From Heterodontus francisci (Eukaryota): 64,000 bases of DNA. The notes beneath the pieces are model-generated. The model had not been told where the DNA came from and did not search any database. It was given only the letters and a program-made list of their open reading frames with translations. The translations under genes were made by a program, and so were the position numbers. This document shows positions 17,733-33,230 of this stretch, in pieces. The stretch's first letter is position 1. Each line of letters opens with the position of its first letter. The stretch is from assembly GCF_036365525.1 (NCBI RefSeq), contig NC_090404.1, forward strand, positions 7,874,001 through 7,938,000, read 5' to 3'.

Positions 17733-18012
17733 TCACTTGACCTGTAAAAGAGGGATAAGAGAATGAAGCAGAGATTTCGTGGTCTGGGACATTTATCTCA
17801 GAGTTTATTTCATCTACGAAACTTTTAGAGATTAGTTCAACAGCTTCAGTCAACTTGAAGTGTGAGTGGATTGAATCTTCTCACCTTCACCAGAGTGACG
17901 GCAGCACTGTAGAAAATACTCAGGAAGAACAGGATGATGAATGTGGAAGCGGTTGACCAGATGTTGCCGCTCTCTTCCTCATTGTCTTCAATCCAGATGT
18001 GGTCTGATGAAT
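17733..18012 (-). CDS. IGHM: IgM transmembrane exons TM1 (17885-18012) and TM2 (17733-17741)
   Basis: DSSDHIWIEDNEEESGNIWSTASTFIILFFLSIFYSAAVTLVK|VK-stop, with the CART motif and canonical GT/AG sites. Confidence 0.92.
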
Positions 18013-18619
18013 CTACGGAGATGTAGGTGAGGAAATGTATTTATATTGTTTATTTATCCAGGATATAAGATGGTTATTTTGCATTCACAGTTCTCGTCCC
18101 TAAGCCATTATTTTATTTTCTAATTTAATTTTCAATGTGTATTTATTGCTAATTTAATCACGTTCAGCAATCTATCTCTGTTACTAACTCCACAGCAGTG
18201 CTTCCTTTATGATCCTCGTCCAAACAGGGTTGGAAAATATTCCATTTTCTTTCTTCAGTGTCAGGCACTATTTTATTTTGGATCAATTTCGTTCTATCAT
18301 TAGGGACTTTATGGTTAGATATCGAGAGAGGTTTATTGATTGATATGAATTATTTCGAAGATGGGTTCAGGTAGTTACATATTTGGAGATTGTTGATGGT
18401 GCTGGGTAAGAGATTGGATGTGAGTTCCAATCTTGTTTGTTTACTTCTGCTGAAAGTGGTTGGGAAATCATTAATTTATCTCAGTTTCTAAGTGAGAATA
18501 TTACTTCATTGTGATTTCAGGTCCAACATGTATGAAGGAAAGTGATGGAGACGGTGTCTGTTCAAATAATCCATTTGAATTCTGCTTTCGTCGAGAGGCT
18601 GGCATTTTTGTTTCTGCAC

Positions 18620-19500
18620 TTTAGTGTTTGTGTATATGTGTATGAGTATTTTTTGCGTTGCAATACTCTGTGTTTGTGTCTCCGTGTGCGTGAATGTATA
18701 TTAAAGTGTGACTTTATTTGTTTGTTTGCGTACCCGAGCATGAGTGTGTTAATGTTCTTGTTTATATGTAGATGGCTCTGTGTATGTGTCCATGTATGTT
18801 AATTTGTGTTAATGTACCAATGTGCATTGATGTTTGTATTCAAGTGCCCGCCTGTATGTGCGTGTAGTGTGTGTTGTGTCTATCTGTCCATGTGCCTGTA
18901 TGAGCGTGTTAATATTTGTTTATATGTGTGTTTGTGTCCCCATCTGTTTGTGAATCTGTGTTTCTGTGTTGATAGATATGTTTATCTTTCCCTGTAAGTC
19001 AATGTGTATTCACGTGTCGTTGTTTTTAAGGGTCTGTTAATGTGCTAGTTTATGTCTTCTGGTCCCCCAAATGTGTGATAATGTGTGTTTTTATGTCTTG
19101 ATGTCTACATTTATGTATTAATGCGTGTATTAATGTGTGATTATGTGTACACGTGTGTTAATGTATGTGTTTATGTACGTGTTTGTATATCCGTGTGTGT
19201 GTGTCAGTTTCGTATTGTTGGCGTTCATTTGTGTGAGAGTGAATGTGTTATTGCGTCCATTTATCTATGTGTTTGTGAGTACGGTAGAGTCTGTTTATGT
19301 GCGAGTACGTGCATCCATGTGTGCATATCAATGTGTGTCCTAGTGTGTGCTTTTATGGCTATGTATCTCTGTACGTGAGACTGTGCGAAGATAAGTGCTT
19401 ATGTTTATGTTTGTACGTGTGACTGGAAGCCGTTAAATCAGAATTTGGGTCTGTTCGCGTGTGTAAGTGTATATGTGTGTGTTTGTGTCCGTGTGCCTGT
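18620..19500. repeat. Degenerate (TG)n-rich low-complexity tract in the CH4-TM intron
   Basis: Long TG/TA-rich run. The Cys/Val-rich ORFs here are artefacts of the repeat. Confidence 0.85.
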
Positions 19501-20548
19501 GCTTTTTTGTTAATTTTTCAAAGTTCCACAGTGAACCAATAACCGGGTGTGGCCTTCACGGGTTATATTGCAGAGAATATTCTTCACCGTCTGTGTATAA
19601 ATGTGTTCTGTGCGAGATGCAATATCACATCAGCTGAATGCATGAAGCAATACAACTGATGGGCCACAGAAACGTCAGAAACACAAGCGTAAAAAAACAG
19701 GAGGATTTTATCCCCAGTTAGATTTGGACTATTAACAGGGAAACGTTTAAAGATATTATGTTGCATGCATAGACATTTTGCAATATTATCCCCATGTGGA
19801 AAGCTTAAAATCTTCGCAGAGTGAGCTAGAAGCCGATTTTGAACTGATGGCAACTGAGTCCATCCAATAGAGAGCACTTGCCTTCCCATCTCTCTGCAGG
19901 GGGAGTGGGATTATAGTGGGTTAACAAGTGCCCTTCCTCCTTTCTCTGTTGTAGAAATTGGGGAGAGGGGCTACTGTCAGTCCATAATTGCCGTTGCCCT
20001 CTTTCTATTGAACACGTGGAGTTACAGTGGATTAACAGCTGCCCTTTTCCTGTTTCTGTTTATGAAGTGGAGGTACGGTGGGTTAATAAATTATCATTTG
20101 CCCTCGTTCTAATGGAGGACATGTGGTACACTTCGTATTTTTGTGTGGCCCTCACTTCAGTTCCCATGTGTGTAATGCTGCAACTTAAAACTGGCCCAAT
20201 TCTGAAGGGATGGACAACACGAGAAGCAGGCACAGTGAGATCTAAATATGCTGAGCCTGTTTGCTAGAAAAGGCAAAGATAATATTTTCCCCCAACGGGA
20301 GAAAGGTTGCTGAAGTTACTCTATGGAATCCGATAATAAATCAGCTTTCCTCTGTCTCTAACCTCTAGTGTTTCTGAGCTGGAAGCACTGGTTCTTCAAG
20401 ACTTGAAAATATCCTGCTTTAGATGAATAGATCTACGCTTAGAAAATCTGGGAAGCAAAATTAATTGAGCGGTTGTGTATTTAAATCGTGATTGGAGGAA
20501 ACGGTCTTTATTTTTTTATTTAAGAATTGAAATGCAATCGAGAGATTC

Positions 20549-20940
20549 TCATTGACATGAATTGACAGTGTCCAACAGAGCAAGGGAAATGTTCATAAAA
20601 CTCGGTTTACCACTGGATTTATTAACTGTTCTGTTGATGATCTTCAAGGGGATCGCTTCATGTCCCACCACACAGGAGTAAGAAGCGCCGCTGGCCCACT
20701 CCTCCGCTGCAATGGATAACAGGCTGTAGATGAAGTAGGAGCTATTGTCGTTCTCCGCCATCACCTCGGTGTTCTTGTAGTTTCCGGGATTCACCGACTT
20801 GTCATTGACGGTCCACTTGATGAAGATCTCCCGGGGGGAGAAACCTCTCACTAAGCAGGTGAGGGAGAGGAACTTCTGAACGGAGACGTCTTCTGCCGGG
20901 GACAGAAGGACAGACACGGATGGTTCCCGCAGATTTTTAA
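20549..20940 (-). CDS. IGHM: IgM CH4 with secretory tailpiece
   Basis: [13 protein letters not shown]...[10 protein letters not shown]...[11 protein letters not shown]...[28 protein letters not shown]. Internal donor G|gtaaac at 20611/20610 for TM splicing. AATAAA at 20507-20520. Confidence 0.95.
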
Positions 20941-21439
20941 CTGCAGAAAAATTATAATAAATGTCAATAAACTGGAGAATTCCAGAACCAATGAAACCGA
21001 TGGTTAGATATGAGAGTAGTGGGCTTTGCGCTGAATTTTAATGGTTTTCCTTTTCCCCTCTGGGTTCAGCCCTGTTTTCCAGCCTGGAGCAGAGGCGGAT
21101 GCAATCCTCCTCGCTGAGAACTTAAAGGATTAGACGGCAAAATTACATCGAATTTACAGCACAGAAACAGGCCATTCCCCCCAACTAGCCTGTGCTGGTG
21201 TTTATGCTGCCGCCGAACCTCTTCCCACCTTATTTCATCTCTTTCGATTACTTTCTCCATCATCTACTTATTGGGCTTCCACTTAAAAGCATCATCTATG
21301 ATTTCAGAGAGTTTTGTTAATGAATTACAAGTAAATTCTCAGAATAATCCGTCAGACCACTTGATAGGAAGATTTGTCCCTTTCACAAACACCGGAAGTA
21401 GCACAACCTCTCACTTGTAGCTTCAATCTCACCGCTCAC

Positions 21440-32035: not shown

Positions 32036-32110
32036 CTGCAGTCACCGTCACCATGGTCCCTTGTCCCCAGAACTCATGATAGTACGAACTATCCATACCC
32101 ACGAGAATAC
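32036..32110 (-). CDS. Germline-fused IgH D(-D)-J segment with a single 5' 12-RSS
   Basis: GT ATT CTC GTG GGT ATG GAT AGT TCG TAC TAT CAT GAG TTC TGG GGA CAA GGG ACC ATG GTG ACG GTG ACT GCA G|gtaaa = ILVGMDSSYYHEFWGQGTMVTVTA. Heptamer 32111-32117, 12-nt spacer, nonamer acaaatact 32130-32138. Confidence 0.85.
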
Positions 32111-32289
32111 CACAGTGACACGAACCCGTACAAATACTGCACTCAGTCTCTGTCCAGTACTGTCTCTCAACATTCACTTCAAATAGAAATTCCCTTCTGA
32201 TCCAGCACAGAATATATCCAAAAGTTTACACCATTCAGTAGGAAGCGAACACAGATCCAAGTAACTCCCTACAAGTAACAGTCACATTG

Positions 32290-32500
32290 AAACCAACATT
32301 TGTTGCAGCGCGGAAGAAGGCCATTCGGCCCATCGTGTCGGCACTGGCTCTCTGAAAGAGCAATTCCCTCAGTCCCAGTCCCTGCCTTAGCCCCATATCC
32401 TTGCACATTCTTCCTTTCCATAGAACTATGAATGCTTCAATTGAACCTGCCTCCACTACTTTCTCAGGCAGCGCATTCCAGATCTTAACCACTCGCTGCA
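32290..32500 (-). mobile_element. CR1 3'-end fragment between VH and D-J
   Basis: QRVVKIWNALPEKVVEAGSIEAF followed by the CR1 3' UTR (atgggccgaatggcc). Confidence 0.75.
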
Positions 32501-32749
32501 ATTACTGACACTGTTAACATAAATATCAGCACGGCCAAAATTACTCATCAATACTTCGGTCAGTGTCTTAGATTTGCACCATTGAATTTTCACTGTGTTA
32601 GTTTAGTACCAGACGGGAGAAGGTCTGGTTCTGAACACTACTGTTAATATGGTATTTAGCAAGTACTGACCGTCAGGTTATAATAGAATATCTCGAATTC
32701 CCCCATGATCTGTTCTTGTGCGGGTCCAGCCCTGGTTTCTCTCGCTGTG

Positions 32750-33230
32750 GGACTCCAAAACAGTAATAGATGGCGGTGTCTTCTGTCTTCAGGTTCTTCA
32801 TGTCCAAAGCGAAGGTGTTGTTTGAAGTGTCTTTGGATGCGGTAAATCGATTTTGAATCCCTGGTGCGTAAGCATCTCTGGATGAACTATAGTAATAAAC
32901 TAACCACTCCAGCCCCTGCCCGGGAACCTGTCGGACCCAATACATATTGAAGCTGCCTAGACTGAACCCGCTGGTTTTACAGGTCAGTTTCAGGGCGCCT
33001 CCGGGTCTCCCGGTCTCTGCCTCTGGCTGAGTCAACACGGCATCCGAATGGACACCTGTCAAAAATATCAAAAAACCCGAGGATTAATCCTGGTGAAATG
33101 ATTCCTGACTCTGTAACATTCCAGAGAGAGAGTCTAACACTGAGACAGTAACAGTGAGAGAATCAGGCAATAAAAACTACTCACGGGATAAGAAAACCAG
33201 CAACAGACTGAGAGAAATCGCCGACCTCAT
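32750..33230 (-). CDS. IgM VH segment with leader: leader 33185-33230, V exon 32750-33055
   Basis: [67 protein letters not shown]...[14 protein letters not shown] cacagcg (32743-32749), 23-nt spacer, acaagaaca (32711-32719). TATTTAAA at about 33322-33329. Confidence 0.95.

What the first reader, a model, noticed from the sequence alone, without database searches (positions are those of the whole stretch)
17733..33230. Complete IgM heavy-chain cluster with all exons open, embedded among TCR delta and NAR-TCR segments
Seen: leader, VH, D-J, CH1-CH4, secretory tail, TM1 and TM2 all have open frames and canonical splice sites. The gene is gap-free contiguous with NAR-TCR cassette 1 about 14 kb downstream and in the same orientation. 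Established: sharks make IgH V-TCR delta chimeric rearrangements, and Ig V segments or clusters have been found in shark TCR alpha/delta loci; as I recall these were mostly incomplete or pseudogenic. Inference: this VH (23-RSS) could serve both a B-cell IgM and, by cis rearrangement to D-delta, a TCR delta chain.
Basis: partly seen in the sequence, partly recalled or inferred. Interest (0 to 1): 0.75.

Follow-up and report, generated by a model that had tools for sequence, protein, structure and literature searches.

The report
Half-pre-joined shark IgM among TCR genes
This is a real horn shark antibody (IgM) gene among T-cell receptor gene pieces, an arrangement already published for other sharks and repeated many times on this chromosome; this copy has its D and J pieces already fused and has lost a cysteine that its paralogs keep, so it is likely a decaying copy rather than a shared antibody/T-cell gene.

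Summary
All nine IgM coding pieces are open on the minus strand with GT/AG sites, and no N separates the gene from the NAR-TCR cassette 14.1 kb downstream.

The setting is ordinary. The contig carries at least 42 IgM J loci mixed with TCR V and NAR-TCR segments over about 10 Mb; 20 of 40 Cmu4 hits lie within 100 kb of a TCR V. Table S1 of PMC12227049 lists the same interleaving in great white shark.

D1, D2 and J are fused in the DNA (V-DDJ; 3 of 42 loci have a free V with joined D-J). The V ends in Phe-Gly-Val (0 of 26 paralogs have Phe there). CH3 has Ser for the second disulfide Cys (29 of 29 paralogs keep Cys).

Joining to D-delta is allowed by RSS and strand, but D-delta is 4.56 Mb away, 26 IgM J loci lie between, and C-less VH-like segments sit 25-80 kb from it. 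Expression of this copy was not shown. Earlier scan notes report similar partly joined clusters in other genomes.

The parts
33185..33230 (-). Leader exon of the IgM heavy chain; the upstream promoter region aligns with 7 paralogs, including the TATA-like motif
32750..33055 (-). VH exon, open, both cysteines and the tryptophan present; ends Cys-Phe-Gly-Val where 24 of 26 paralogs have Ala after the Cys
32711..32749 (-). 23-spacer RSS (heptamer CACAGCG, also seen in 4 paralogs; nonamer ACAAGAACA)
32300..32499 (.). About 200-bp dispersed repeat inserted between V and D; hits many other contigs and is absent from the paralog alignments
32111..32138 (-). 12-spacer RSS of D1 type, directly abutting the fused element
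32036..32110 (-). Fused D1-D2-J: D1-like 14 nt, D2-like 3' remnant, about 5 nt not matched to D or J, full-length J; internal RSSs and about 800 bp of spacer DNA absent
23686..23985 (-). Cmu1 exon, open, canonical cysteines present
23156..23473 (-). Cmu2 exon, open, canonical cysteines present
21440..21748 (-). Cmu3 exon, open, but the F-strand Cys codon is Ser (codon 21500-21498); 29 of 29 paralogous loci keep Cys; one N-glycan sequon is also lost
20549..20940 (-). Cmu4 plus secretory tail (penultimate Cys kept); internal donor for the membrane form at 20610
17885..18012 (-). TM1 exon
17733..17741 (-). TM2 exon (two residues and stop)
2322..3644 (-). Neighbour: NAR-TCR leader, V (22-RSS), D (12/12), J (23-RSS)
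85..1551 (-). Neighbour: two leaderless, already joined NAR-TCR VDJ exons with the same junction (1551-1210 with an in-frame stop, 426-85 open); the supporting V-delta lies 5.4-5.7 kb beyond the window start
42829..43135 (-). Neighbour: open TCR V alpha/delta with 23-RSS
49099..57324 (+). Neighbour: second NAR-TCR cassette in the opposite orientation (V, degenerate D, J, supporting V-delta whose first Cys is Tyr)

Best explanation
This is one of at least 42 IgM miniclusters in the horn shark's combined IgH/TCR alpha-delta complex; its D1, D2 and J are already fused, likely by RAG in an ancestral germ cell, and it is likely a decaying, low-output copy. Shown: the exons, the interleaved neighbourhood, the fused D-D-J with one 23/12 RSS pair left, the changed V tail, the CH3 Cys-to-Ser change. 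Inferred: one RAG step (V to DDJ, about 630 bp) would complete the gene in a lymphocyte; an untrimmed join would be in frame with a 17-codon CDR3 of which 13 codons are fixed; the chain would have a CH3 without its intradomain disulfide and would likely fold or be secreted poorly. Its position among TCR V genes reflects the general layout of the complex, not a dedicated link to TCR delta.
For: Species: a 100% identical protein labelled Heterodontus francisci. 40 VH, 40 Cmu4 and 40 JH hits all lie on contig C34 between 3.6 and 13.9 Mb (lists capped at 40 for VH and Cmu4). 26 supporting V-delta and at least 40 V alpha/delta hits are spread over the same span. 12 of 40 Cmu4 hits are within 50 kb and 20 of 40 within 100 kb of one of them. 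Survey of 42 J loci: 23 fully split, 1 probably split with an insertion, 1 with an inverted D block, 2 VDDJ, 1 VD-D-J, 8 VDD-J, 1 with a single D, 3 free V plus joined D-J, 2 with no V in the stretch fetched. The J begins at its exact germline length and the internal RSSs are gone. DNA contigs bridge the fused element and the V tail with 0 differences at the same depth as the flanks. CH3 Cys is present in 29 of 29 paralogous loci and absent here; the aligned position is Cys in the solved IgM and IgA chains shown. PMC12227049 text and Table S1 describe the linkage and interleaving. [quoted passage not shown]
Against: No stop, frameshift or broken splice site in any coding piece; promoter, both RSSs, secretory tail Cys and TM are kept. 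Private codons in the four C exons are 17 nonsynonymous to 9 synonymous, which does not separate neutral decay from weak constraint (P about 0.21 against a rough neutral share of 0.74). Several paralogs carry as many private changes. The effect of the Cys loss on folding is inferred, not measured. The Ser codon was not confirmed in reads and could be an allele or an assembly error. The DNA runs come from one sample that may be the assembly source, so inheritance is inferred.
Confidence: 0.66

Rival explanations
1. A working one-step IgM gene with a mostly pre-set CDR3, used early in life like other germline-joined shark Ig genes; the CH3 change is tolerated or is a private allele.
For: All frames, splice sites, promoter and RSSs are kept. 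An untrimmed join is in frame. Reviews report an early expression advantage for germline-joined clusters (PMC4279169 passages; PMC2193156 passages).
Against: CH3 lacks a cysteine kept in 29 of 29 paralogous loci. The fixed D1 frame is hydrophobic. Of the two other free-V/joined-DJ loci, one (L119) has a frameshifted V. The three have different junctions and form no supported clade, so the layout is not a conserved lineage here.
Confidence: 0.19
2. One reading: the VH is used mainly or also as a TCR delta V by long-range cis joining to D-delta, while its own constant region decays. It would be an intermediate on the way to a C-less Ig-like TCR V.
For: 23-RSS matches the 12-RSS of a D-delta-like segment on the same strand. 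A second D/J/C-delta-like set on the other strand would allow an inversional join. A supporting V-delta about 38 kb away must reach the same D. IgM/IgW V to TCR delta chimeras are reported in sharks (PMC12227049, PMC5931798 passages). V and promoter are intact while the clearest lesion is in the C region.
Against: 4.56 Mb distance, 26 IgM J loci between; 16 of these have a free 23-RSS V on the same strand. 14 VH-like hits with no Cmu exon lie 20-83 kb from D-delta, at least 6 open with a 23-RSS. A 12-RSS about 630 bp away competes, and nurse shark thymocytes rearrange IgH within the cluster extensively (PMC2435157 passages). Low-level use like any other IgM VH would not be special to this copy.
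Confidence: 0.11
3. The juxtaposition is a misassembly, or the fused D-D-J is a somatic lymphocyte product captured in the assembly.
For: No long read or listed contig spans 4.9-17 kb; I did not lay reads there. V-DDJ is a documented somatic intermediate in nurse shark thymocytes (PMC2435157). All DNA runs laid are from one sample.
Against: No N between 1 and 35033. The same interleaving recurs at many loci on the contig and in great white shark, catshark and stingray. A single DNA contig covers RSS plus fused element at flank-level depth with no difference or joint listed. The D1- and D2-like parts differ from every germline D listed, which fits an old join. No split copy of this V-D spacer was found elsewhere in the genome (top 40 candidates scored).
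Confidence: 0.04

Closest known systems
Elasmobranch antigen receptor complex (AgRC) of Flajnik et al. 2025, PMC12227049 (parts 1-3 of 8 of the text, further passages and Table S1 read)
   Same: IgM miniclusters linked to TCR alpha/delta, with TCR V and NARTCR segments between IgH clusters. In great white shark an IgM model (LOC121270616) lies between two NARTCR models.
   Different: Horn shark is not among the four species in Table S1. The table gives no RSS state and no residue-level check of the IgM genes.
Partly germline-joined IgM clusters of horn shark and skate (VD-J, VD-DJ, VDJ; passages of PMC5192425, PMC4279169, PMC2193156)
   Same: Same species and mechanism; segments fused with loss of RSSs; one RSS pair left.
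   Different: Here the V is free and D1-D2-J are fused. That form is not named as a germline form in the review passages I read. It appears as a somatic intermediate in PMC2435157. The original horn shark papers were not available to me.
IgH V to TCR delta chimeras and TAILV / Ig-TCR-delta V segments (passages of PMC12227049, PMC5931798, PMC6795676; primary papers not read)
   Same: An Ig VH with a 23-RSS in cis to D-delta.
   Different: TAILV-type segments have no constant region of their own and sit beside D-delta; such segments exist in this genome at 3.36-3.43 Mb. This VH has its own D-D-J and Cmu and is 4.56 Mb away.
IgM1gj of nurse shark (passages of PMC4279169, PMC5192425)
   Same: Germline-joined IgM with a pre-set CDR3.
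   Different: IgM1gj is fully VDJ-joined, lacks Cmu2 and is strongly expressed in neonates; this gene still needs one join, has four C exons and has no expression evidence.

Membership tests
Elasmobranch IgM minicluster | Split leader, VH, D(s), JH, Cmu1-4, secretory tail with penultimate Cys, TM1, TM2 in one cassette | tested here: met
   Cmu exons 90-96% identical in DNA to paralogs; best solved-structure hits for CH3 include IgM
Elasmobranch IgM minicluster | Separate D1 (12/22), D2 (12/12) and J (23) segments | tested here: not met
   single fused element behind one 12-RSS; 23 of 42 loci show the split layout
Elasmobranch IgM minicluster (functional) | Canonical B-F strand cysteine pair in every Ig domain | tested here: not met
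   present in V, CH1, CH2, CH4; CH3 has Ser, 29 of 29 paralogous loci have Cys
Elasmobranch IgM minicluster (functional) | Productive transcripts spliced to Cmu | tested here: inconclusive
   RNA-like contigs cover the exons but are short and shared with paralogs
Partly germline-joined IgH cluster | Segments fused at coding ends with loss of the RSSs and spacer DNA, junction with extra letters | tested here: met
Partly germline-joined IgH cluster | Joined form is the constitutive DNA, not a minority lymphocyte product | tested here: inconclusive
   bridged by a 307-nt DNA contig at flank depth with 0 differences, but one sample only and tissue not on record
Partly germline-joined IgH cluster | Inherited: present in non-lymphoid DNA of several individuals | not tested
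TAILV / Ig-like V of TCR delta | VH-like segment without its own D-J-C, next to D-delta | tested here: not met
   has its own D-D-J and Cmu; 4.56 Mb from D-delta; C-less segments exist elsewhere
IgM V donor of IgH-TCR delta chimeras | 23-RSS compatible with the 5' 12-RSS of D-delta on the same chromosome | tested here: met
IgM V donor of IgH-TCR delta chimeras | Transcripts joining this V to D-delta, J-delta and C-delta | tested here: inconclusive
   no such loose end or joint listed in three RNA-like contig sets of one sample; contigs drop rare forms

The most novel reading that the evidence does not exclude
A snapshot of an Ig V being handed over to the T-cell receptor: the IgM cluster's constant region is disabled (CH3 disulfide lost) and its D-D-J frozen, while promoter, V frame and 23-RSS are kept because the V is used with D-delta in thymocytes. 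That would show how C-less Ig-like TCR delta V segments arise from IgM clusters embedded in the TCR V array.
Probability: 0.08. Interest if true: 0.65.

Novelty: new member of a known kind. Interest (0 to 1): 0.28.

Why it matters
The linkage is already in print, so the gene adds a fifth species and residue-level detail rather than a new principle. Its use is practical. The fixed D-D-J, the Phe-Gly-Val V tail and the CH3 Ser are unique sequence tags among near-identical paralogs, so one locus can be followed in repertoire data. That makes two open questions testable: whether partly joined horn shark clusters are ever completed and expressed, and whether IgM VH segments megabases from D-delta feed TCR delta chains in cis.

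Tried and rejected
1. Expression. The look-up of sequencing runs listed no holder on record as RNA. Three RNA-like contig sets from one sample cover the exons heavily, but at 100% likeness none had depth in the bins 32101-32137 or 32841-32877, and the listed RNA pieces on the J side stop at about 32077. The 12 V-J junctions shown (of 64) have other V tails and other D-J letters, so they come from paralogs. This is neither evidence for nor against expression of this copy.

2. Confirming the CH3 Ser codon in reads: no difference was listed at 21500, but paralog contigs confound that site and both read-laying runs were used. Open.

3. Contiguity of 4.9-17 kb was not tested with reads; only the absence of N and the repeated pattern speak to it.

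4. Selection test on private codons: 17 to 9 in C exons, 6 to 4 in V; not informative. CH1 and CH2 used only 12 and 13 paralogs that passed the length filter out of 20 stretches fetched.

5. VH tree of 27 rows: the window VH has no supported sister; nearest is L002 at 90%. The idea that the three free-V/joined-DJ loci share one origin is not supported.

6. Protein searches with the VH found no record above 79% identity and, among the 6 VH hits whose sequences I read, none joined to a TCR constant region. Weak evidence.

7. The V tail (four changed letters in a row) might be an open-and-shut RAG joint or a tandem mutation; a rough chance figure was 0.0007 (chosen after seeing the pattern). Not resolved.

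8. Literature: 8 searches found no paper describing this locus or a germline V-DDJ cluster; most subscription papers are not held. PMC7909615 and PMC12010099 were not available. The supplementary PDF of PMC12227049 was not read.

9. No structure prediction was run; it would not settle stability without the disulfide.
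Full report
Observation. The gene is on the minus strand at the coordinates given. Leader, VH, a D-J element, Cmu1-4, secretory tail, TM1 and TM2 are open and in phase, with GT donors and AG acceptors. The only N run in the window is at 35034-35179. A NAR-TCR leader-V-D-J unit starts at 3644 on the same strand, 14.1 kb past TM2. In 264 kb around and including the window this is the only IgM; the other hits are TCR V alpha/delta, supporting V-delta and NAR-TCR V segments on both strands.

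Organism and setting. A protein labelled Heterodontus francisci is 100% identical to the window's supporting V-delta. The window is G000:C34:7874001-7938000. On this contig 40 VH hits, 40 Cmu4 hits and 40 exact JH-pattern hits lie between 3.6 and 13.9 Mb (the VH and Cmu4 lists are capped at 40 of 55 and 58 candidates). Twenty-six supporting V-delta hits and 40 listed V alpha/delta hits (of 75 candidates) cover the same span. Counting only those two V families, 12 of 40 Cmu4 hits are within 50 kb and 20 of 40 within 100 kb of a TCR V. Four tandem units at 12.0-12.3 Mb each carry an IgM with a TCR V nearby. So 'embedded' describes about half of the IgM genes here. Three TCR constant regions lie at 3.18 (minus), 3.30 (minus) and 3.46 Mb (plus). 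I call the 3.30 and 3.46 Mb ones delta-like because each is preceded by a 12/23 D and J segments, and the 3.18 Mb one alpha-like because a long J array without a detected D precedes it. These names are inferred from layout.

What is in print. [quoted passage not shown] Its great white shark sheet lists IgM models between NARTCR and TCR V models, and a 'NARTCR V(gj)V(gi)V' model. Horn shark is not in the table.

The three have different junctions and form no supported clade, so they are likely separate events. A 307-nt DNA contig covers the 12-RSS and the fused element, and a 462-nt contig covers the V tail and 23-RSS, both with 0 differences and at flank depth. These runs are from one sample that may be the assembly source. 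Reviews name VD-J, VD-DJ and VDJ as germline forms and attribute them to RAG in germ cells (passages of PMC5192425, PMC4279169, PMC2193156). V-DDJ appears in PMC2435157 as a somatic intermediate in nurse shark thymocytes (passages). My searches did not find it named as a germline form, but the original horn shark papers were not available.

CH3 has Ser where the F-strand Cys should be; all 29 paralogous loci fetched keep Cys, and so do the solved IgM and IgA chains aligned. From general knowledge of Ig domains this removes the intradomain disulfide and leaves a free cysteine, which usually destabilises the domain; I did not measure this. The VH ends in Phe-Gly-Val; 24 of 26 distinct paralogs have Ala after the Cys, one Thr, one Val. 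Against decay: there is no stop or frameshift, the promoter region aligns well with 7 paralogs, and the ratio of private changes does not distinguish neutral drift from constraint.

How it most likely works. One RAG step joins V to the fused element. An untrimmed join leaves 51 nt between the Cys and Trp codons and is in frame; with trimming and N addition about a third of joins would be. Most of CDR3 is then fixed and its D1 part is hydrophobic. The resulting chain would likely fold poorly in CH3. I put this reading at 0.66, a working early-life gene at 0.19, preferential TCR delta use at 0.11 and artefact at 0.04.

The dual-use idea. It is allowed: 23-RSS to the 12-RSS of the D at 3,343,718, same strand, deletional. 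Neighbouring TCR V segments have to cover the same distance, so distance alone does not exclude it. But nothing marks this VH out. It is 4,563,031 bp from that D with 26 IgM J loci between, 16 of which have a free V on the same strand. Fourteen VH-like hits with no Cmu exon in 3.17-3.58 Mb lie right beside the two D-delta-like segments, at least 6 of them open with a 23-RSS. Its own 12-RSS partner is about 630 bp away. The RNA-like contigs available could not show use with either constant region.

Earlier scan notes. Nothing was on record near this place. Notes from other genomes describe partly joined IgM clusters, some beside TCR V genes. They agree with this reading; I did not check them.

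Verdict. A real and correctly described IgM cluster in a known kind of locus. The detail worth keeping is the V-DDJ state together with the CH3 cysteine loss, which give unique tags for testing expression. New member of a known kind; interest 0.28.

Noticed in passing
window 85-3644 (-) and G000:C34:7868272-7868574: NAR-TCR cassette with a rearranging L-V-D-J followed by two leaderless, already joined NAR VDJ exons with identical junctions (first with an in-frame stop, second open) and then the supporting V-delta. If the stop exon is skipped this could give a TCR delta chain with three V domains. A similar V(gj)V(gj)V model is listed for great white shark in Table S1 of PMC12227049.
   Followed up: partly
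G000:C34:7802931-7809214 (-): A cassette with L-V-D-J, then a leaderless NAR V with its RSS and a 12-RSS before a D already joined to J, then the supporting V-delta: a candidate triply rearranging NAR-TCR. Its V resembles the joined exons in the window.
   Followed up: partly
G000:C34:3.30 Mb (-) and 3.46 Mb (+): Two delta-like D-J-C sets in opposite orientation, back to back around a block of C-less VH-like segments; only one alpha-like C was found on this contig. TCR V segments on either strand could join by deletion to one of them, at least for those lying between.
   Followed up: partly
L090 (G000:C34:4251167 region): IgM cluster whose D1-D2 block is inverted with D1 joined to J, as an inversional RAG join would leave it.
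   Followed up: no
G000:C34:6.95-7.38 Mb and 11.99-12.27 Mb: Tandem repeats of large units: alternating split (minus) and VDD-J (plus, V with a stop) IgM clusters at about 105-kb period, and IgM plus TCR V units at about 70-kb period.
   Followed up: no
window 57020-57323 (+): The supporting V-delta of the second NAR-TCR cassette has Tyr for its first Cys; likely non-functional.
   Followed up: no
window 59725-61580 (-): Third NAR-TCR cassette looks broken: J splice donor is not GT, V has Tyr-Asp-Cys, D 12-RSS is degenerate, and a repeat is inserted between V and D.
   Followed up: no
window about 10890-11310 (-): TCR V pseudogene (frameshift, 3' end replaced by a repeat) between the IgM and NAR-TCR cassette 1.
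   Followed up: no
window 62860-63145 (-): Frameshifted TCR V pseudogene.
   Followed up: no
G000:C34:8333087 (+): A Cmu4 exon with no Cmu1-3 or V hit in the 23 kb upstream: an orphan or truncated IgM piece among NAR-TCR cassettes.
   Followed up: partly
G000:C1869:27426-27521: Copy of the alpha-like TM exon on a small contig, identical in translation to the one on C34; likely a haplotype duplicate.
   Followed up: no
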